DNA of 64,000 nucleotides, taken from the IMG/VR virus record IMGVR_UViG_3300034073_002951, positions 7,092 to 71,091 of that record, one strand, 5' to 3'. The position numbers and the translations under genes are program-made. The DNA is from a virus. Of this stretch, positions 14,259 through 20,023 are shown in pieces. How positions within the stretch are numbered: the first letter of the stretch is position 1; each line of letters opens with the position of its first letter. The notes under the pieces were generated by a model. The model saw only the letters and a list, made by a program, of their open reading frames with translations, did not search any database and was not told where the DNA came from.

Positions 14259-16970
14259 TTAGAAATTGTATCTTAACGATGCATTCCACGTTCTACCAAA
14301 ACCAAACCATACAGAGTTACGAACATCAACATCATTCCATGTTGGTGCGGTTCCATCTGCGTGAATGTTGGTATTTGATTCAGCAATATAAACGGTATCA
14401 AACACGTTGTTTACGTTTACTCTGAACGAAGCGTTATGCTTCATCAAATCAAATCTAACAGTAAGACCTAAATCTACCAATCCATAGGAAGGAAGTTCAA
14501 GTGCTCCTTTGTTATCAGGTCTTGTAAAGTCTGATGAAGTAATAGAATAGTCAGCAAATAACTTATCTGCGAAACGATGACTAATGTCTAAACTTACATC
14601 ATCAACTCTAAAGTCAGCTTCTAAGTAAGTAGTAAACTGTGCTGCATCACCAACTTTAGCTCCTTTAGTATAAAGAGTACCTGTACCGATTTGTTGGTTG
14701 TTATCATCAAAGAGTACAGTAGAGAAGTCTTTTGTATATCTCCAATCACCAACTGAAACCATACCTGTTAGTTTCAGAGCGTTGAATGGACGATAAGTTG
14801 TTTCTACTTCTACACCATTGTGAAGAACATCAATATCACGGAACTGTGCAGTACCGTCTGTACCGTCTGCGGTTCTAAATCCTCTACTGATGAAACGATT
14901 ACCCCATACTGTGGAGTAGGCATTTACATTCAAAGTAAAGTCAGTACCTAAGTAACCGTAACCTAACTCAACAGATGTTACTCTTTCATTTTGTAGATCT
15001 GGATTGACTAAGTTTGCGTAGTTAGGAAATACAGCATCAAAGTTTGGTTGACGAGAAATGAAACCTGCATTGAAGAATACATTCTGTCTATCATTGATGT
15101 TGTAGTTTGCTCCACCTTTTACATATCCACCACCTTGGTTTACTTCTTCGGAAAGAGGAAGTGTTGGTTGGTCAAAAAGGTCTTCTCTTTGGAAGGATTG
15201 GTTAGATACACCTGCTTGAACTACTGCTGTAAGTTCTTCACCTGTATACTCGACCAAACCGTTTAGACCTTGCCATCCAACATAACCGACATTATAGTAG
15301 TCGATTTTCGGGCCGTTGAGACCTGTATTTTTGAATGGAGATGGGTCAATCAAAGTTTCAATGATTTGACCTGCGGAGTTCTTATTACCTGTTGAATAAT
15401 AACCATCAAGACCCATAAGGTCAGTTACTACTCGGTAGTGGTAGCCTGTATAGTCTCTCAAGTCAATACCAACTGATGCACGAAGAGTTTCACCTTCATA
15501 TTCCAAGTTAGAAATAACTCCATACCAGTCGTGTGAGTTCATAGAAGCTCTACGAATAAGAACCGCTCTATTTACTCCATCATTACGGAAACCGTTTGAA
15601 CCGATACGAAGACCTTCAAAGCGTGAAATTGCTCCTGTGTAAGCTCCTGTGGTTGCTCTATTGACTTCAATGACTTTATCAAAATCAATAAATCCATCAG
15701 CATCTCTTGTACCTCTACCACGGTTTAAGTAGTGTTCGGTCAAGTCAATGTTGAATGGATACATATCAATATCACCATTACGGAAGTTATTTCCACGAGG
15801 ACCAGTTCCTCCACCTCTACCTGCGGAAGCATAGAAAGAAGTATTCAACTGAAGTCTATCTGTGATTTCATAATCCCAGTTGAATGTTGCTAATGGTTTG
15901 TTGTAGAAGTTTCTTCTCATATTGAACTCTTCACCATCTAAGAATCCAGCATCAGTATTCCATCTTCTATCAATACCTTCTTCACCGAAGTTTTGGTAGT
16001 CACGGATTGATACCCATGAGTCTCTTTGGTGGTGCCATTGACCTGCTCCTAAAACCGAAAGGTTTAGAGAGTGACGGGAGTCAGTTGGATTATATCCTAC
16101 TGCGACAAAGTAAGTATGACCTTCACCTTGTGTTCCGTAGACATATCCATTACCCGCCCAATAGGAATAGAGGAAGGAAGTTGCCCATCCACTTTCACTT
16201 CTACCTGTGGAATAGGAAAGAGTTGTTTTGGTATAACCATCGTTACCGACAAGTTGAGATACAGTACCACCTCTTTCTCTCTCCGCAGCTTTTGTGAAGA
16301 TAGATACAGTACCACCTACTGATGGAACTGCAAGACGAGAAGCACCAAGACCTCTTTGGATTTGGATACCAGAAGCTACATCAGTCAAACCTTGCCAGTT
16401 AGACCAATATACCCATCCGTTTTCCATATCATTAACGGGTTGGCCATTGATAAGGAATGATGTATTACGTTGATCAAAACCACGAAGTGAAATACGGGAA
16501 TCACCATATCCACCACCTGTCTTGGTTGCGTAAACACCGGGTGTTCTTGCCATTACTTCTGGAAACTCTTGATTACCCACTCTTTGTGAGATTTCAAGAG
16601 GTGGAATTGTAGATACTGCAACAGGGGTTTCCCTGATTCTTGCAATATCAATAACTCCGGAAGTAACAACAATCTCACCAAGTTCACCGAACGCCTGTTC
16701 AAGTCTTACGACCATTCCATTTGTTGCAGAAACTTCTTGAGTTTTATAACCAACAAAAGATACTACCAAAACCGTACCTTCGGTTGCTTCTTGAAGTGTA
16801 AAAGAACCATCCATACCGGTACTAGCTCCGATATGTGGGCGTTCTTTCACAACAACAGTAGCACCGGGTAATCTTTCGGAAGTACTTGCATCAACCACAG
16901 TACCTGTGATTTGTGCATTTGCTACCAATGATGAAAACATCATTGTGATTGCTATTAGTAGTTGTTTCAT
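14259..16970 (-). CDS. TonB-dependent outer-membrane receptor with N-terminal carboxypeptidase-regulatory-like domain
   Basis: Signal peptide MKQLLIAITMMFSSLVANA/Q; ITGTVVD...LPGATV...VSFVGYK; plug ISLRGF...LINGQP; beta-barrel ending YNF. Start set at ATG 16970. Confidence 0.92.
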   Translation of the reverse strand: MKQLLIAITMMFSSLVANAQITGTVVDASTSERLPGATVVVKERPHIGASTGMDGSFTLQEATEGTVLVVSFVGYKTQEVSATNGMVVRLEQAFGELGEIVVTSGVIDIARIRETPVAVSTIPPLEISQRVGNQEFPEVMARTPGVYATKTGGGYGDSRISLRGFDQRNTSFLINGQPVNDMENGWVYWSNWQGLTDVASGIQIQRGLGASRLAVPSVGGTVSIFTKAAERERGGTVSQLVGNDGYTKTTLSYSTGRSESGWATSFLYSYWAGNGYVYGTQGEGHTYFVAVGYNPTDSRHSLNLSVLGAGQWHHQRDSWVSIRDYQNFGEEGIDRRWNTDAGFLDGEEFNMRRNFYNKPLATFNWDYEITDRLQLNTSFYASAGRGGGTGPRGNNFRNGDIDMYPFNIDLTEHYLNRGRGTRDADGFIDFDKVIEVNRATTGAYTGAISRFEGLRIGSNGFRNDGVNRAVLIRRASMNSHDWYGVISNLEYEGETLRASVGIDLRDYTGYHYRVVTDLMGLDGYYSTGNKNSAGQIIETLIDPSPFKNTGLNGPKIDYYNVGYVGWQGLNGLVEYTGEELTAVVQAGVSNQSFQREDLFDQPTLPLSEEVNQGGGYVKGGANYNINDRQNVFFNAGFISRQPNFDAVFPNYANLVNPDLQNERVTSVELGYGYLGTDFTLNVNAYSTVWGNRFISRGFRTADGTDGTAQFRDIDVLHNGVEVETTYRPFNALKLTGMVSVGDWRYTKDFSTVLFDDNNQQIGTGTLYTKGAKVGDAAQFTTYLEADFRVDDVSLDISHRFADKLFADYSITSSDFTRPDNKGALELPSYGLVDLGLTVRFDLMKHNASFRVNVNNVFDTVYIAESNTNIHADGTAPTWNDVDVRNSVWFGFGRTWNASLRYNF

Positions 16971-17038
16971 ATGTGTTTTTTGTTTTTTGTTGTTTGTATT
17001 GATACCACACATAGTATGGTATTTATCCTTTTTTTTTT

Positions 17039-19285
17039 TCAAAAGAATTTGTTTGTGTTATTATTTACTTTTATTCTTTTATTCGTTTCCTCAATATAAG
17101 GATTTTTTTGTTCATAGTCAATTCTTGCTTCCGCTATCTCAAAGTATTCCTTTTCTCTTTCTATTCCAATAAAATCAAATCCACCCCTTACTGCTGCCTT
17201 ACCAGTACTTCCACTGCCCATAAACGGGTCTAATGTAGTTCCACTTTTTGGAGTAACTAAACGGATAAGATAAAGCATTAAGTCTGTTGGTTTTACAGTT
17301 GGGTGGTGGTTCTTTCTTGGTTGACCTAATGCACTCTGTCTGCCCGATGCTGGTTTGGACCGGGCGGAAGCCGGAGGTTCTCCAAACGGAAACTCATCCA
17401 ACCCTTCGTTTCTATCCCCTTTTGAAGTTTTTGGACAATAGAAGAAACGAGATGCTCCGCCACTATCATTATGTCTTACTGTTACTTTATTTTTTAACCC
17501 TTTAAAAAAATCATTTTGTTCTTCGGGATTTGTATAACCTATACTTGTTGCCGTACATTTACTCAACCCACTTTGTTCGTCCAATAACTTACCTGCTTCT
17601 TCATCAAAGATAATGTTGGCAGGGAAACGGCCAGGTGGATTATAGTTCTTTGGTTCAACCATAGAGTAATCCCCATATATTATATTACCTGTTAGTGGTT
17701 TTGTTCCAAAGTCTGCGTGTTGGTTTTTTTGTGTGCTTTCTTTTCTATCCGCTTCATCTTTGAATGGTATTCTACTTTCATCTATGTTTATTCCACCGGT
17801 TCCCCATTCTAATACATTATCAACTACTGTATTTTCAGAGAGTGGTTTTCTTGCCATTACGATTGGTTCGTGTGCAGGTTTGAGAGCCGTCCCCCAACCT
17901 TCCCAATCAGAGTTTCCTTTGGTTATTTCCCATTCTCCTACACCATAGGTTGAACCATCATAGTCTGGACTATTTGGGTCTGCTTTACCCCAACAAGCAT
18001 TTTTAGCAGTTCTACTATCATTTCCAACTACTTCTCTTTGATTACCAAGTTTTTTATCAACCTCTTTTCCTATGTTGTGTGATTTGGGGAAGCCTGAGTT
18101 TCCTGTAATGAATACTTTTCCATTTCTACGAGCAACAAAAGCACCAGTTGAGGTGTTAGGACAGAAGATTACTCCTGAATAAGTTTCTTTGGTGATGGTT
18201 GCCAAATCGGTTGTATAGGATGTCCCGCTTCGTATTTCTTGTGGTCGGAGTTGTTCTTGAATAACATTAGATTGTTTATCTCGTTGTTTTCGGGGTTGTG
18301 GTCTATGTGATGGATGCACTCCATTCGTGTTAGTGGTCTCCCCAAATATTGAGCTACCTTCAGTCGGTATTCCGTCACGTAACCATCTTTTCTTGCCATA
18401 CTTTTGTATTCTTCGGGACACCTCACGTATTTTATTCTTGCATTGGAGTAATACCCCTTCTTCTTTCTGTAAGTTATCCCACCCTTCCAAGCTGGATTGT
18501 TCTCCCCACTCATATTCTGTCTGTAACTCTCGTGACTCTTTTCCGTCCACCCCGAACGACCTTTGTGTCCGTGATGTTTCCATTCTTCCCCCCTCACTTT
18601 GCCATTGCATTGGTGACTGCAATAATTGGAGTTCCCCTTCTTGTAAGAAAGAAAAATCGTTTTGCAAAACTGGCACTCTTTCCATATCACCGAGGTCTTG
18701 TGATTTGGTGAATACAAGATTTCCATTTCGTTCAACAAGGCAGTTGTGGTCTTTGCTGACGAGTTGGTCTGTTTGATTTCCTCTAATACGATAGACGGTA
18801 TCTTCGTTGAGCGAATATACATACCACCTTTCGGGCCTTTCCCATTTGTAAATGTCTCTTTCAATATCATAAACTAAAATCTCTCTTTTACTATAAATAT
18901 CATCTTTTGTGATTTTATGGTAGTGTTTCCACCCCTCTTTTGTAAGGATTTCAGTATCTTCTGTTAGACATCCATACACCCACATAATTTGGTCTCTTAT
19001 CTCAAATCCTGCATCTTCTATTCTAACTGCCATTCTATGATAAGTACGTGAACCTGCAAAAGCAAGAAGATGACCTCCGGGTTTTAGAACTCTCATACAC
19101 TCTTCCCAAATCTCTTGTGACGGAACATCGTAGTCCCACTGCTTTCCCATAAATCCACCTTTGGAAGTTTTACCACTATTTGGAGCTGCGGAAAGTCCGT
19201 ATGGAGGGTCCGTAACTATGGAGTCAACGGAATTATCCCCTAACTCTTTGAGTTTATCTAAACAATCACCTAATAAGAGTTTCAT
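17039..19285 (-). CDS. N4/N6 DNA methyltransferase (beta class) containing an intein
   Basis: IVTDPPY (motif IV) at the N-terminus; HPTVKP and LDPFMGSGSTG (motif I) at the C-terminus; the conserved WVYG|SGFPKS is split by a 291-aa insertion. Confidence 0.92.
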   Translation of the reverse strand: MKLLLGDCLDKLKELGDNSVDSIVTDPPYGLSAAPNSGKTSKGGFMGKQWDYDVPSQEIWEECMRVLKPGGHLLAFAGSRTYHRMAVRIEDAGFEIRDQIMWVYGCLTEDTEILTKEGWKHYHKITKDDIYSKREILVYDIERDIYKWERPERWYVYSLNEDTVYRIRGNQTDQLVSKDHNCLVERNGNLVFTKSQDLGDMERVPVLQNDFSFLQEGELQLLQSPMQWQSEGGRMETSRTQRSFGVDGKESRELQTEYEWGEQSSLEGWDNLQKEEGVLLQCKNKIREVSRRIQKYGKKRWLRDGIPTEGSSIFGETTNTNGVHPSHRPQPRKQRDKQSNVIQEQLRPQEIRSGTSYTTDLATITKETYSGVIFCPNTSTGAFVARRNGKVFITGNSGFPKSHNIGKEVDKKLGNQREVVGNDSRTAKNACWGKADPNSPDYDGSTYGVGEWEITKGNSDWEGWGTALKPAHEPIVMARKPLSENTVVDNVLEWGTGGINIDESRIPFKDEADRKESTQKNQHADFGTKPLTGNIIYGDYSMVEPKNYNPPGRFPANIIFDEEAGKLLDEQSGLSKCTATSIGYTNPEEQNDFFKGLKNKVTVRHNDSGGASRFFYCPKTSKGDRNEGLDEFPFGEPPASARSKPASGRQSALGQPRKNHHPTVKPTDLMLYLIRLVTPKSGTTLDPFMGSGSTGKAAVRGGFDFIGIEREKEYFEIAEARIDYEQKNPYIEETNKRIKVNNNTNKFF
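18098..18970 (-). mobile_element. Intein (291 aa) in DNA methyltransferase
   Basis: Block A CLTEDTEILTKEGWK, block B SKDH, block F/G VIFCPNTSTGAFVARRNGKVFITGN, followed by Ser+1. Confidence 0.92.
18169..18870 (-). CDS. HNH homing endonuclease encoded in the +1 frame inside the intein
   Basis: CQFC...CSHQC zinc motif, GENNPAWKGG, EYRL...LGRPL...IHHIDHNPENNEINNL (HNH_3-type). Alternative start ATG 18726. Confidence 0.85.
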   Translation of the reverse strand: MILKETFTNGKGPKGGMYIRSTKIPSIVLEEIKQTNSSAKTTTALLNEMEILYSPNHKTSVIWKECQFCKTIFLSYKKGNSNYCSHQCNGKVRGEEWKHHGHKGRSGWTEKSHESYRQNMSGENNPAWKGGITYRKKKGYYSNARIKYVRCPEEYKSMARKDGYVTEYRLKVAQYLGRPLTRMECIHHIDHNPENNEINNLMLFKNNSDHKKYEAGHPIQPIWQPSPKKLIQE

Positions 19286-19539
19286 ATTGTGTAAATGTGG
19301 ATTGGGGTATATTCTCCAACATAAGCAGATTCTATATTAAAGTCAAACCATTCTATTGCTTCCTCTTCCCTCATACCTTGTTCTTGAAGTTCTGAAATGA
19401 TTTTCCTAATATCATATACTACTCTACCATCAGAGGATACACCGATTATTGCTCCATCTAAACCATCCCAAAGGATAGCTTCTTCGTTATGTTCCGAAAT
19501 CCTATCTTTAATTGCCTGTGCTTCCAAATCCACCCTCAC
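19282..19539 (-). CDS. Conserved phage hypothetical protein
   Basis: DGLDGAIIG...VVYD...EAIEWFDFNI...YVGEYTP pattern; overlaps neighbours in operon fashion. Confidence 0.6.
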   Translation of the reverse strand: MRVDLEAQAIKDRISEHNEEAILWDGLDGAIIGVSSDGRVVYDIRKIISELQEQGMREEEAIEWFDFNIESAYVGEYTPIHIYTI

Positions 19540-20023
19540 CTCTTTCAGTTTGTGATAGTTCTTCTACTTCGGTAAATCGTACAGATGGATATGGAAGTAT
19601 CGTTATTTGACAAATTCGGTCACCAACTTCGTAATGTTGTGATTTTGGATTTAGAATGTTAAAGGTTGCTTGTATTTCACCTCTGTATCCACTATCTATT
19701 ACTCCAACTGAATTACTTAATTGTAATCCTGTTTTTCTTACCGAAGACCGTGGGAAAATCAATCCAACATATCCACGGGGAATTTCTACTGCAATACCCG
19801 TGCCATAAGTAATTTGTGTTCTGGTTTTGGAAATAATTTCTGTGGCTACTAAATCCATACCCGCGTCACCATCTTTTGCGTATTGTGGAAGTATTGCGTT
19901 AGGATGTAGTTTTTTCATTCTTATATCTAATTCTGCTAATTCCGTCAGTTTGTAAGTCACAGATTTCCCTTCAATATTTGCGGTTGATGAAAATTCCCTA
20001 AATAAATTTAATTGTTTGTCCAT
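19508..20023 (-). CDS. dut: Trimeric dUTPase
   Basis: AGMDL, PRSS, GVIDSGYRGEI, RGEGGFGSTG. Confidence 0.95.
   Translation of the reverse strand: MDKQLNLFREFSSTANIEGKSVTYKLTELAELDIRMKKLHPNAILPQYAKDGDAGMDLVATEIISKTRTQITYGTGIAVEIPRGYVGLIFPRSSVRKTGLQLSNSVGVIDSGYRGEIQATFNILNPKSQHYEVGDRICQITILPYPSVRFTEVEELSQTERGEGGFGSTGN

What the first reader, a model, noticed from the sequence alone, without database searches (positions are those of the whole stretch)
18098..18970. Intein whose homing endonuclease is hidden in the +1 frame (dual-coding selfish element)
Seen: the MTase frame is open for 748 aa and contains a canonical intein (Cys1; SKDH; ...ITGN|Ser) that splits the conserved WVYG|SGFPKS. The roughly 170 aa between intein blocks B and F have no recognisable endonuclease in that frame and read as a Gln/Arg/Ser/Glu-rich spacer. 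The same DNA read in +1 (18169..18870) gives an HNH nuclease with CxxC/CxxxC zinc motifs, GENNPAWKGG and HHIDHNPENNEINNL; its stop lies in block F codons. About 700 nt are therefore stop-free in two same-strand frames in AT-rich DNA. Established: intein homing endonucleases are normally in-frame domains; from memory, alternate-frame HNH insertions have been reported in actinobacteriophage methylases, so this may be an independent case in an unrelated phage group. Inference: splicing removes the alternate-frame junk from the MTase while the HNH is made as a separate protein and drives homing.
Basis: partly seen in the sequence, partly recalled or inferred. Interest (0 to 1): 0.92.

Follow-up and report, generated by a model that had tools for sequence, protein, structure and literature searches.

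The report
Methylase intein with out-of-frame HNH gene
A phage DNA-methylase gene carries a self-splicing intein, and the intein's mobility nuclease (an HNH endonuclease) is a separate gene written one base out of step in the same DNA; both frames are kept by selection, but this kind of layout has been published for other inteins and nucleases.

Summary
On the minus strand, a 748-aa N6/N4 DNA methylase ORF (17039-19285) contains a 291-aa intein (18098-18970) inserted at WVYG|SGFPKS. A 233-aa HNH ORF (18169-18870) lies in its +1 frame.

This is not chance or indel error. None of 20,000 synonymous recodings of the HNH keeps the methylase frame open. The same frame pair is open in 78 of 80 related viral loci.

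Selection switches frame. dN/dS for frame 0 / frame +1 is 0.14/1.41 in the extein plus intein start, 1.38/0.18 in the HNH core and 0.13/1.92 at the C-terminal end.

The frame-0 ends fold as a HINT domain and the middle is disordered. Intein-free alleles exist.

Splicing, separate HNH translation and homing are inferred, not shown.

The layout is already in print: dnaX intein, actinophage inteins, and the ShiLan HNH in a homologous methylase without an intein. This HNH-in-intein family was not found in three literature searches.

This scan has already met the same family on other DNA.

The new points are a doubly constrained overlap with the splicing domain and a class-3-like intein signature.

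The parts
17039..19285 (-). Methylase precursor ORF (748 aa plus stop), N6_N4_Mtase family, interrupted by the intein
   Evidence: ORF list. Pfam PF01555 E 9.9e-32, matched in two stretches on either side of the insert. PHROG 67 DNA methyltransferase E 3.4e-69.
18971..19285 (-). N-extein (residues 1-105), ending ...IMWVYG
   Evidence: Junction read directly. N-extein similarity in related loci. 77% identical over 44 aa to Mantra gp64, where the site is uninterrupted.
18098..18970 (-). Intein, 291 codons in the methylase frame (Cys1 ... Thr-Gly-Asn, followed by Ser+1)
   Evidence: Boundaries W.YG|CL[ST]EDTE ... [ITP]TGN|SGFPK found by BLAST in 71 of 80 loci, plus 3 more by eye. C1, H75, C270, T289, G290 and N291 are invariant in 64 sequences. 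A contig in run X3 joins 18097 to the N-extein without this stretch.
18656..18970 (-). N-terminal splicing lobe of the intein (intein residues 1-105; block B SKDH at 18746-18757)
   Evidence: AF2 pLDDT 87-98 in ten-residue blocks (69 for residues 21-30), beta-rich. Foldseek top hits are all inteins or HINT domains, best 6zgq E 8.3e-6. Variability is highest at frame-0 codon position 3.
18218..18655 (-). Frame-0 filler or linker (intein residues 106-251): stop-free read-through of the HNH gene
   Evidence: AF2 pLDDT 43-57 for residues 111-250 with no secondary structure after residue 119. Frame-0 dN/dS is 1.38. Variability peaks at frame-0 position 1, which is HNH position 3. T is avoided at all 67 stop-risk sites.
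18098..18217 (-). C-terminal splicing lobe of the intein (residues 252-291; invariant Cys270 at 18161-18163)
   Evidence: AF2 pLDDT 96 with beta strands. Frame-0 dN/dS is 0.13 for residues 268-291 plus the C-extein. Invariant residues.
17039..18097 (-). C-extein (residues 397-748 plus stop), starting SGFPKSHN
   Evidence: Pfam stretch 467-719.
18169..18870 (-). HNH endonuclease ORF, 233 aa, in the +1 frame. Candidate starts are ATG 18870 and ATG 18822. The stop codon is at 18169-18171.
   Evidence: HNH_3 in 24 of 24 aligned members. HNH PHROGs, best E 4.5e-16. 362 homologues at E <= 1e-3. Frame +1 dN/dS is 0.18 in the core. AF2 mean pLDDT is 83.5.
18601..18684 (-). Zinc-ribbon-like CxxC...CxxxC segment of the HNH protein (residues 63-90)
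   Evidence: W63, C66, C69, C84 and C88 are invariant in 24 sequences. Relatives carry one to several extra copies.
18226..18513 (-). HNH catalytic core (residues ~120-215: NPAWKGG ... MARKDGYV ... HHIDHNPENN..NL..F...DH)
   Evidence: Invariant columns. Pfam and PHROG stretches 132-215. The best whole-bank structural match is I-HmuI 1u3e: Z 4.9, rmsd 5.2, 79 aligned, model residues 120-219. This is weak.
18701..18814 (-). Doubly constrained overlap: intein residues 53-90 (including block B) in frame 0, and HNH-ORF residues ~20-57 (conserved IP..E...LNE.E segment) in frame +1
   Evidence: Codon identity given the same amino acid is 0.63-0.67 here, against 0.34-0.45 outside the overlap. Frame-0 dS is 0.25, against 1.0-1.4 elsewhere; dN/dS is 0.35 (frame 0) and 0.73 (frame +1). 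AF2 gives pLDDT 79-93 for HNH residues 1-50. The free-standing relative L063 keeps this N-terminal segment.

Best explanation
This is a mobile intein in a phage N6/N4 DNA-methylase gene. Its homing endonuclease is not an in-frame domain. It is a separate HNH gene nested in the +1 frame.

Shown here:
- The two frames are both open.
- Purifying selection acts on frame 0 in the exteins and in the two splicing lobes.
- Purifying selection acts on frame +1 across the HNH core.
- Both frames are constrained over about 38 codons where the HNH ORF's N-terminal segment overlaps the intein's block-B region.
- The frame-0 ends are predicted to fold as a HINT domain joined by a ~145-residue disordered read-through.

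Inferred:
- The methylase precursor is translated straight through, and protein splicing removes the whole 291-residue insert.
- Splicing runs from Cys1 to Asn291 onto Ser+1. It may use the class-3-type branch Cys270.
- This restores WVYG-SGFPKS.
- The HNH protein is made separately from an internal start, ATG 18870 or 18822.
- The HNH protein cuts intein-free alleles of the methylase near this conserved motif. Repair then copies the intein plus HNH into them (homing).
For: Dual frame:
- Both ORFs are present.
- 0 of 20,000 synonymous recodings keep frame 0 open; 0 of 67 risk codons end in T, against 23.3 expected.

Conservation:
- The host frame is open across the HNH in 78 of 80 viral loci found with the HNH alignment, always with the same frame offset.
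- 71 of 80 loci have both intein junctions by BLAST, and 3 more have them by eye.
- 635 methylase proteins match the intein region at E <= 1e-3. All 120 listed carry PF01555 and none carries HNH_3 in frame.

Selection:
- Codon-position variability switches from frame-0 p3 to p1 (which is HNH p3) at intein residue ~96 and switches back at ~252. This holds in 13, 65 and 52 sequences.
- Pooled NG86 over 17 pairs gives frame 0 / frame +1 dN/dS of 0.14/1.41, 0.35/0.73, 1.38/0.18 and 0.13/1.92 along the element.

Fold:
- pLDDT is 87-98 (one block of 69, residues 21-30) for intein residues 1-100 and 96 for residues 251-290. It is 43-57 for 111-250.
- The top Foldseek hits are all inteins or HINT domains.

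Catalytic residues: C1, H75, N291 and Ser+1 are invariant.

HNH identity.

Intein-free alleles:
- Mantra gp64 reads AWLYG-SGFPKSLD uninterrupted.
- A contig of run X3 joins 18097 to the N-extein through 22 replaced bases. I read these by hand as ..CIAWMYG|SGFPKS.
- Other contigs in X1-X4 leave the conserved N-extein block and run directly into SGFPKS-coding sequence.

No indel artefact:
- Contigs of X1 and X2 are identical to the window. These runs are possibly the source, so they are not independent.
- X4, from another study, differs only by substitutions and one 83-to-80-nt replacement, a multiple of three.

Start codons:
- An ATG lies 2-6 codons before the conserved IP motif in 26 of the 45 sequences where my pattern located that motif. 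15 of the 26 have an SD-like motif, against a 0.20 background.
- An ATG lies 15-26 codons before the motif in 22 of 45.
Against: - There is no expression, splicing or cleavage evidence. No RNA run was available.
- The frame-0 intein hits no Pfam family.
- The penultimate residue is Gly, not His.
- The window's own HNH scores just below the Pfam cut-off.
- Foldseek found no PDB match for the HNH model.
- The I-HmuI match is only Z 4.9.
- A PDB profile search gave no nuclease.
- The window's first ATG (18870) has no canonical SD, only a purine run.
- 20 of the 65 sequences were not placed by my IP-motif pattern. 2 of the 45 placed ones have no ATG before the motif.
- Promoter-like sites are not above chance: 10 found against 6.3 +/- 2.8 expected.
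- Four loci (L071, L078, L079, L080) carry the same HNH out of frame in the methylase without an intein. Read-through insertions near this site can therefore persist unspliced.
- Rare fused forms exist (P0085, P0252).
Confidence: 0.8

Rival explanations
1. Assembly or sequencing artefact: a canonical intein with an in-frame HNH domain, thrown out of frame by two compensating indel errors.
For: Nothing positive. The two runs whose contigs match exactly (X1, X2) may be the source of the record, so they are not independent. Raw reads were not available; only contigs were.
Against: - Two errors would leave frame 0 full of stops between them. A mean of 23.6 stops is expected, and 0 of 20,000 recodings are open.
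- 78 of 80 independent viral contigs show the same frame pair.
- Run X4, from another study, carries the element at about 97% identity with no indel other than one 3-nt length change.
- None of the 120 listed methylase-intein proteins has HNH_3 in frame.
Confidence: 0.01
2. The HNH is not initiated internally. It is reached by a programmed +1 ribosomal frameshift from the methylase/intein frame, giving an N-extein-IntN-HNH fusion protein.
For: - The +1 frame opens well upstream of the nuclease core, inside the splicing lobe.
- The window's first ATG lacks a canonical SD.
- 2 of the 45 placed sequences have no ATG before the conserved motif.
- One database protein, P0085, is exactly such a fusion.
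Against: - Most relatives have an ATG at one of two conserved positions. The proximal ATG is enriched for SD-like motifs: 15 of 26, against a 0.20 background.
- I did not look for a conserved slippery site, and none was noticed.
- P0085 lacks the first CxxC, so it looks like a deletion variant.
- The free-standing relative L063 starts at its own Met just before the same N-terminal segment.
Confidence: 0.06
3. The intein no longer splices. The 291-residue insert stays in the mature methylase as a tolerated loop, as proposed for the ShiLan domain, and only the HNH matters.
For: - The penultimate His is absent.
- Intein-less relatives (L071, L078, L079, L080) carry the out-of-frame HNH as a read-through insertion at or within ~20 residues of the same site.
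- The ShiLan authors argue that such an insertion need not disrupt the methylase (PMC11855218, section 4.1).
Against: - Strong frame-0 purifying selection acts on both splicing lobes: dN/dS 0.13-0.14, including flanking extein.
- C1, H75, C270, T289, N291 and Ser+1 are invariant across 64-71 sequences.
- The HINT model is confident.
- The closest solved structure is an intein that lacks the same His and still splices well (AceL NrdHF; passages of PMC7891396).
Confidence: 0.1
4. The nested HNH is domesticated rather than a homing enzyme, for example a packaging-associated or anti-competitor nuclease.
For: HNH_3-type nucleases have several roles in phages (stated in PMC11855218, section 4.2). 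The wider profile family is very large: 37,937 representatives at E <= 1e-3.
Against: - The close family (92 representatives at E <= 1e-30) was found almost only inside this one methylase site: 78 of 80 loci.
- Intein-free alleles occur in the same metagenomes.
- Other configurations are found at the same gene: an antisense copy (L037) and intein-less copies (L071, L078, L079, L080).
- This is the pattern of a site-specific invader.
Confidence: 0.03

Closest known systems
Non-canonical actinobacteriophage inteins with the homing endonuclease in a separate reading frame (bioRxiv 10.1101/2025.01.02.630785; passages and section 8 read)
   Same: A bona fide intein whose endonuclease ORF lies on the same strand in another frame, while the extein/intein frame stays open. 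It is interpreted as a free-standing nuclease gene that invaded an intein.
   Different: - There the out-of-frame nuclease is endonuclease VII-like, in frame 3, in DNA polymerase, minor capsid, terminase or thymidylate synthase hosts. The HNH inteins they list are in frame.
[quoted passage not shown]
- Here the nuclease is HNH_3-type with zinc ribbons, in frame +1, in a methylase.
- Here the ORF overlaps about 60 codons of the N-terminal splicing lobe, with signs of double constraint.
[quoted passage not shown] That text credits Gorbalenya 1998 with the first proposal.
   Same: The principle is the same, and so is the frame-dependent dN/dS signature: low in the nuclease frame, raised in the extein frame through loss of synonymous change. 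Mini-intein and intein-free alleles co-exist.
   Different: The nuclease there is LAGLIDADG, in a +2 ORF, in a bacterial chromosomal replication gene. It is not an HNH in a phage methylase.
ShiLan domain: hidden out-of-frame HNH in mycobacteriophage DNA methylases (PMC11855218; abstract and sections 3 and 4 read). Also noted for phage Applejack (PMC12613952; search listing only).
   Same: - The methylase family is the same: the window's exteins are 35-77% identical to Mantra gp64 in four blocks.
- The nuclease type is related: 26.5% identity over residues 62-218, E 1e-5.
- The host frame is stop-free across the nuclease gene.
   Different: - ShiLan has no splicing domains.
- It sits at a different site (HEPVVVARKP, which corresponds to window residues ~471-480).
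- It is in frame +2 of the methylase in Mantra.
- In Mantra the window's intein site is uninterrupted.
AceL NrdHF class 3 split intein (PDB 6zgq; PMC7891396, passages read)
   Same: - It is the best structural match to the frame-0 model: E 8.3e-6, 22% identity over 104 columns.
- Both have Cys at the block-F/C2:4-like position and Thr at C1:5.
- Both lack the penultimate (C1:6) His.
- Both lack Trp at N3:12.
   Different: - AceL NrdHF is naturally split and carries no endonuclease.
- The window's intein is contiguous, starts with Cys1 and has Cys (not Met) two residues after the block B His.
- I assigned the motif positions here by pattern, not by structural superposition.

Membership tests
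Intein (HINT-domain protein-splicing element) | Nucleophile (Cys/Ser) as the first residue | tested here: met
   Cys1 is invariant in 64 of 64 aligned inteins. The window reads WVYG|CLTEDTE.
Intein (HINT-domain protein-splicing element) | Block B T/SxxH | tested here: met
   The window has SKDH and the consensus is SRNH. His75 is invariant.
Intein (HINT-domain protein-splicing element) | C-terminal Asn followed by Ser/Thr/Cys at +1 | tested here: met
   N291 is invariant. Ser+1 is present in all 71 junctions found by BLAST.
Intein (HINT-domain protein-splicing element) | Penultimate His (usual in class 1, not obligatory) | tested here: not met
   Gly290 is invariant. The spliced AceL NrdHF intein also lacks this His (PMC7891396 passages).
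Intein (HINT-domain protein-splicing element) | HINT fold of the N- and C-terminal lobes | tested here: met
   The AF2 model has pLDDT 87-98 (one block of 69) for residues 1-100 and 96 for 251-290. The 11 Foldseek PDB hits at E <= 1e-3 are all inteins or intein-like HINT domains.
Intein (HINT-domain protein-splicing element) | Precise presence/absence at a conserved site of the host protein | tested here: met
   The site is uninterrupted in Mantra gp64, in L071 and L079, and in contigs of runs X1-X4.
Intein (HINT-domain protein-splicing element) | Protein splicing activity | not testable with these tools
   This needs expression of the precursor.
Class 3 inteins (WCT triplet) | Trp at N3:12, branch Cys at C2:4 and Thr at C1:5 (as defined in PMC7891396 passages) | tested here: inconclusive
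   Cys270 (in V-[WF]-C-[VP], the place of the class 1 Asp) and Thr289 are invariant. The residue two after the block B His is Cys in the window and the consensus, not Trp. Cys1 is also kept. Positions were assigned by motif pattern only.
HNH (His-Me finger) endonuclease, HNH_3 type | HNH motif recognised by family profiles | tested here: met
   PF13392 is hit by 24 of 24 members, best E 5.3e-10. The window's own protein scores 24.5 bits against a 24.8 cut-off. Eight HNH PHROGs are hit, best E 4.5e-16.
HNH (His-Me finger) endonuclease, HNH_3 type | Beta-beta-alpha-metal fold | tested here: inconclusive
   The best VIA-align row is I-HmuI 1u3e (Z 4.9, rmsd 5.2, 79 aligned); I-PpoI scores Z 3.7. 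Foldseek found nothing at E <= 1e-3.
Homing endonuclease | Cleaves the element-free allele and drives gene conversion | not testable with these tools
   Only distributional support is available. The close family is tied to one methylase site in 78 of 80 loci, and intein-free alleles co-occur.
[quoted passage not shown] | Nuclease ORF on the same strand in another frame inside the intein, with the intein frame open | tested here: met
[quoted passage not shown] | Purifying selection in the nuclease frame and relaxed selection in the intein frame over the same DNA | tested here: met
   In the HNH core, dN/dS is 0.18 in frame +1 and 1.38 in frame 0. Codon-position profiles agree.
ShiLan-type hidden HNH insertion | Out-of-frame HNH in a methylase with no splicing domains | tested here: not met
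   The window's insert has both HINT lobes. The site and the frame also differ from Mantra.

The most novel reading that the evidence does not exclude
The element would be more than a nuclease gene parked in intein filler.

About 38 codons (18701-18814) would encode two functional, folded segments at once: the intein's block-B region in frame 0 and a conserved N-terminal segment of the HNH protein in frame +1. This segment would have arisen by overprinting inside the intein. It would then have been carried out again when the nuclease became free-standing, as in L063.

One HNH lineage would also link the following forms at a single conserved methylase motif:
- a free-standing gene;
- an intein-nested gene;
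- an intein-less read-through insertion (ShiLan-like; L071, L078, L079, L080);
- an antisense insertion (L037).

That would give a natural series for how homing endonucleases and inteins join and part. The intein itself may splice by a class-3-type branch cysteine despite having Cys1.
Probability: 0.35. Interest if true: 0.7.

Novelty: new variant of a known kind. Interest (0 to 1): 0.5.

Why it matters
Inteins are textbook examples of a splicing domain with an in-frame endonuclease domain. Cases where the nuclease is a separate overlapping gene support the view that inteins and homing endonucleases are independent partners that associate repeatedly.

This family is large. There are 362 HNH homologues and 635 methylase-intein proteins at E <= 1e-3. 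IMG/VR holds 209 relatives, of which 80 were examined. One 484-kb GenBank phage record carries the element without any annotation.

Gene callers annotate these loci simply as DNA methylases, so the nuclease is routinely missed.

The family offers a well-populated system for studying several questions:
- dual-coding constraints on a catalytic protein domain;
- how overlapping nuclease genes are translated;
- the relation between intein-borne and intein-less (ShiLan-type) invasions of the same gene.

Compact contiguous inteins with long tolerated linkers, and site-specific HNH nickases or cutters, also have some tool value.

Tried and rejected
Artefact and chance were tested and rejected.

Searches and scans that gave nothing useful:
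- Pfam on the frame-0 intein: no family at E <= 0.1.
- Foldseek PDB with the whole HNH model: no match at E <= 1e-3.
- PDB sequence profile search with the HNH alignment: only a BED zinc finger, at E 0.028.
- ESM Atlas with HNH residues 1-62: no usable hit.
- Promoter and terminator scan of 17000-19600: 10 promoter-like sites against 6.3 +/- 2.8 expected by chance, and 0 terminators. Nothing can be said about a dedicated HNH promoter.
- Sequencing runs: no RNA holder was listed, so expression could not be addressed. All laid runs were contigs, not raw reads.

In-frame HNH versions:
- None was seen among the 120 listed methylase-intein proteins; the other 515 hits were not listed.
- Among the 150 listed representatives, only one protein over 500 aa has the close HNH. 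This is P0252, where the HNH frame runs into the C-terminal intein lobe and the C-extein.
- P0085 is the converse fusion.
- I could not inspect the DNA of either, so a real variant cannot be told from an error.

Limits of my own analyses:
- My IP-motif pattern failed to place 20 of 65 sequences in the start-codon survey. Those rows are simply missing from the counts.
- In the codon analyses I used 65 unique sequences of the 70 that had 25 flanking extein codons on both sides. Duplicates were dropped. The loci without both BLAST-defined junctions were dropped too (L031, L037, L052, L054, L063, L071, L078-L080), as was one locus cut by its contig end.
- dN/dS used only the 17 of 2,080 pairs with 72-97% nucleotide identity. 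These pairs are not independent.

Literature:
- Three searches found no description of this methylase-intein/HNH family.
- Supplements were closed, so supplementary intein lists of the actinophage survey could not be checked.
- Subscription journals are outside the library.

Full report
WHAT IS THERE

On the minus strand, one search lists a 748-aa ORF (17039..19285) and, inside it, a 233-aa ORF (18169..18870). The inner ORF starts at gene offset 415, which is frame +1.

The long ORF is an N6/N4 DNA methylase:
- Pfam PF01555 at E 9.9e-32, matched in two stretches around the insert.
- PHROG 67 at E 3.4e-69.

After WVYG it reads CLTEDTEILT. It contains SKDH and ends KVFITGN, followed by SGFPKS. 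That is a 291-codon insert at 18098-18970.

The +1 ORF carries CQFC...CSHQC, GENNPAWKGG and HHIDHNPENNEINNL. It matches HNH_3 at E 2.1e-5, which is 24.5 bits, just under the 24.8 cut-off. It also matches eight HNH PHROGs, best E 4.5e-16.

The window is part of a 71,091-base IMG/VR virus record rated 35% complete. The record holds one copy of the HNH.

IS IT MORE THAN CHANCE OR ERROR?

Window G+C is 33.3%. Frame +1 of the gene has 38 stops, with a single gap from codon 136 to 371. Frame +2 has 75 stops.

I recoded the 185-aa HNH core synonymously with the window's codon usage:
- None of 20,000 versions kept the methylase frame open; the mean was 23.6 stops.
- At the 67 HNH codons followed by AA/AG/GA, none ends in T, against 23.3 expected.
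- The reverse test gave P = 0.00175 (all).

Two compensating indel errors would not produce an open frame 0 between them.

Contigs of two runs that may be the source (X1, X2) are identical to the window. A run from another study (X4) carries the element at about 97% identity. It differs only by substitutions and one 83-to-80-nt replaced segment, a multiple of three. No insertions or deletions were listed.

RELATIVES

The HNH ORF has 362 homologues at E <= 1e-3 among 411 candidates. Most are 221-233 aa and cover 97-100% of the query.

An alignment of 24 of them (A1) was used to scan IMG/VR:
- 321 stretches matched, 209 were relatives, and 80 loci were kept.
- In 78 of 80 loci the frame in which the HNH is +1 is open right across the HNH. 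The open spans are 478-1191 aa, some cut by contig ends.
- The third frame is open for only 2-195 aa.

BLAST of the window's N-extein, intein and C-extein against those host-frame translations gave:
- both intein junctions in 71 of 80 loci;
- junctions of the form W.YG|CL[ST]EDTE ... [ITP]TGN|SGFPK.

L031, L052 and L054 show the junctions on inspection. That makes 74 of 80.

A search with the intein region found 635 proteins at E <= 1e-3 among 1,758 candidates. All 120 listed carry PF01555, and none carries HNH_3 in frame. Sources call them DNA methylases.

Against GenBank phages, only one of 1,041 records with a methylase match covers the whole precursor. This is LR756508.1, an unannotated 484-kb uncultured phage. 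It has the same layout.

SELECTION

The analysis used codon alignments of 13 short-type, 65 total and 52 long-type sequences. Mean pairwise difference is highest at frame-0 codon position 3 in three places:
- the exteins;
- intein residues 1-95;
- intein residues 252-291.

It is highest at frame-0 position 1, which is HNH position 3, across residues ~96-251.

Pooled Nei-Gojobori estimates come from the 17 of 2,080 pairs with 72-97% nucleotide identity:

| Region | dN/dS frame 0 | dN/dS frame +1 |
|---|---|---|
| N-extein plus intein 1-30 | 0.14 | 1.41 |
| Intein 53-90 | 0.35 | 0.73 |
| Intein 100-250 (HNH core) | 1.38 | 0.18 |
| Intein 268-291 plus C-extein | 0.13 | 1.92 |

In the 53-90 stretch, frame-0 dS drops to 0.25, against 1.0-1.4 in the flanking single-coding parts. 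Codon identity given the same amino acid is 0.63-0.67 there, against 0.34-0.45 outside the overlap.

So the first ~60 codons of the +1 ORF overlap the splicing lobe, and both readings appear constrained.

STRUCTURE

The frame-0 intein was modelled with 64 aligned sequences. In ten-residue blocks:
- pLDDT is 87-98 for residues 1-100, with one dip to 69 at residues 21-30;
- pLDDT is 96 for residues 251-290;
- both of these parts are beta-rich;
- pLDDT is 43-57 for residues 111-250, with no secondary structure after residue 119.

All 11 Foldseek PDB hits at E <= 1e-3 are inteins or intein-like HINT domains. The best is the AceL NrdHF class 3 split intein 6zgq, at E 8.3e-6.

C1, H75, C270, T289, G290 and N291 are invariant. 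Passages of PMC7891396 define the class 3 triplet as Trp N3:12, Cys C2:4 and Thr C1:5. They also note that AceL NrdHF lacks the C1:6 His.

By motif pattern, Cys270 and Thr289 sit at C2:4 and C1:5, and Gly290 replaces the His. The N3:12-like residue is Cys, and Cys1 is retained. The mechanistic class therefore stays open.

The HNH-frame model has mean pLDDT 83.5, including 79-93 for residues 1-50. Foldseek found nothing for it. The best whole-bank row is I-HmuI at Z 4.9 over residues 120-219, which is weak. HNH_3 is hit by 24 of 24 family members.

INTEIN-FREE ALLELES AND OTHER CONFIGURATIONS

Mycobacteriophage Mantra gp64 is a homologous methylase. It reads AWLYG-SGFPKSLD without interruption.

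In run X3, a 94-nt contig of depth 2.7 joins 18097 to 18993 with 22 other bases between. I read those bases by hand as ..CIAWMYG, followed by SGFPKS.

Several contigs in X1-X4 leave the conserved N-extein block at 18972-18978 and continue into SGFPKS-coding sequence. These are related intein-free methylase genes in the same metagenomes. They are not alleles of the same phage.

The six loci without an intein fall into three types:
- L071 and L079/L080 have the site uninterrupted and carry a shorter HNH in the +1 frame. It sits in a read-through insertion 10-20 residues downstream. L078 has such an insertion just upstream of YG-TGFPKS.
- L037 has the HNH antisense between two methylase half-ORFs.
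- L063 is a free-standing 278-aa HNH with no methylase or intein similarity nearby. It still has the N-terminal IP..EF...LNE.E segment: 29% identity over window residues 17-78 (E 2e-4), against 50% identity in the core.

TRANSLATION OF THE HNH

This part is inference only. The short-type relatives start at M[IMT][ILF][KQ].TFTNGK, at intein residues 28-34. The long-type relatives start at M.T.IP, at about residue 47.

My pattern placed the IP motif in 45 of 65 sequences. Among those 45:
- 26 have an ATG 2-6 codons before it, and 15 of the 26 have an SD-like motif (background 0.20);
- 22 have an ATG 15-26 codons before it, and 6 of those have an SD-like motif;
- 2 have no ATG before it.

The window has ATG 18870, preceded by a purine run, and ATG 18822, preceded by GAAAGG.

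Promoter-like sites are not above chance. No RNA run was available.

Two database proteins show fused frames:
- P0085: N-extein-IntN-HNH.
- P0252: HNH-IntC-C-extein.

COMPARISON WITH WHAT IS KNOWN

The principle is in print:
[quoted passage not shown] - The dnaX preprint reports an out-of-frame LAGLIDADG with the same dN/dS pattern and credits Gorbalenya 1998.
- The ShiLan paper reports an out-of-frame HNH in mycobacteriophage methylases without any intein.

The window's methylase is homologous to Mantra gp64, and its HNH is a distant relative of Mantra's hidden HNH (26.5% identity, E 1e-5). The Mantra insertion, however, is at another site (HEPVVVARKP), in frame +2, and without splicing lobes.

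Kelley et al. 2016 list 11 methylase inteins in mycobacteriophages. The passages I read do not give their sites or their endonucleases.

Three literature searches found no description of an HNH gene nested out of frame in a methylase intein.

Earlier notes of this scan describe the same family in at least five other genomes, with the same reading.

VERDICT

It is a new variant of a known kind: a different nuclease family and a different host gene. It also has three added features:
- a doubly constrained overlap with the splicing domain;
- a class-3-like signature;
- sibling configurations (intein-less, antisense, free-standing) at the same methylase motif.

Splicing, internal initiation and homing are inferred and need the experiments listed.

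Noticed in passing
L071:1293-3041, L078:2571-4484, L079:2151-4319 (L080 gives the same output as L079): High-G+C relatives of the same methylase carry a shorter member of the same HNH family in the +1 frame, with no intein lobes. The methylase frame reads straight through. In L071 and L079 the W.Y[AG]-SGFPKS site is intact and the insertion lies 10-20 residues downstream. In L078 it lies just upstream of YG-TGFPKS. This is ShiLan-like, but at other sites than in Mantra.
   Followed up: partly
L037:1733-3898: The HNH gene lies antisense between two methylase half-ORFs. The N-terminal part ends in a stop, and the C-terminal part resumes shortly before ..NYG-SGFPKS. This could be a disrupted or a split methylase.
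   Followed up: partly
L063:2695-3507: This is a free-standing 271-aa member of the HNH family with no methylase or intein similarity within about 3 kb. It still has the N-terminal IP..EF...LNE.E segment that, in the window, overlaps the intein's block-B region.
   Followed up: partly
P0085 (363 aa) and P0252 (801 aa): These are database proteins in which the frames are fused. P0085 is N-extein-IntN-HNH and lacks the first CxxC. P0252 is HNH-IntC-C-extein. They may be real one-indel intermediates towards an in-frame HNH intein, or they may be assembly errors.
   Followed up: no
L081:1425-3749 (Mycobacterium phage Mantra gp64): Besides the hidden HNH, gp64 has an in-frame insertion of about 160 residues after ..KTWD. 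It contains a LAGLIDGEG motif and is absent from the window's methylase. The ShiLan paper mentions an intein in the ShiLan methylase.
   Followed up: no
L082:2041-4395 (LR756508.1, 484-kb uncultured phage): This is the only GenBank phage record found with the full layout: ..MWVSG|CITPDTEILT ... MFVTGN|SGFPKS, with a +1-frame HNH stretch open for 296 codons. The record has no annotation at all.
   Followed up: partly
window 18494-18576: In run X4, from another study, contigs that are otherwise about 97% identical replace this 83-nt stretch of the HNH/linker with 80 different bases. The one-codon length change keeps both frames.
   Followed up: no
window 14259-17042 (minus strand): A 927-aa ORF with a signal-peptide-like start and a TonB-dependent-receptor-like sequence abuts the methylase gene in this virus record. 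It is also the subject of another first-reader note.
   Followed up: no
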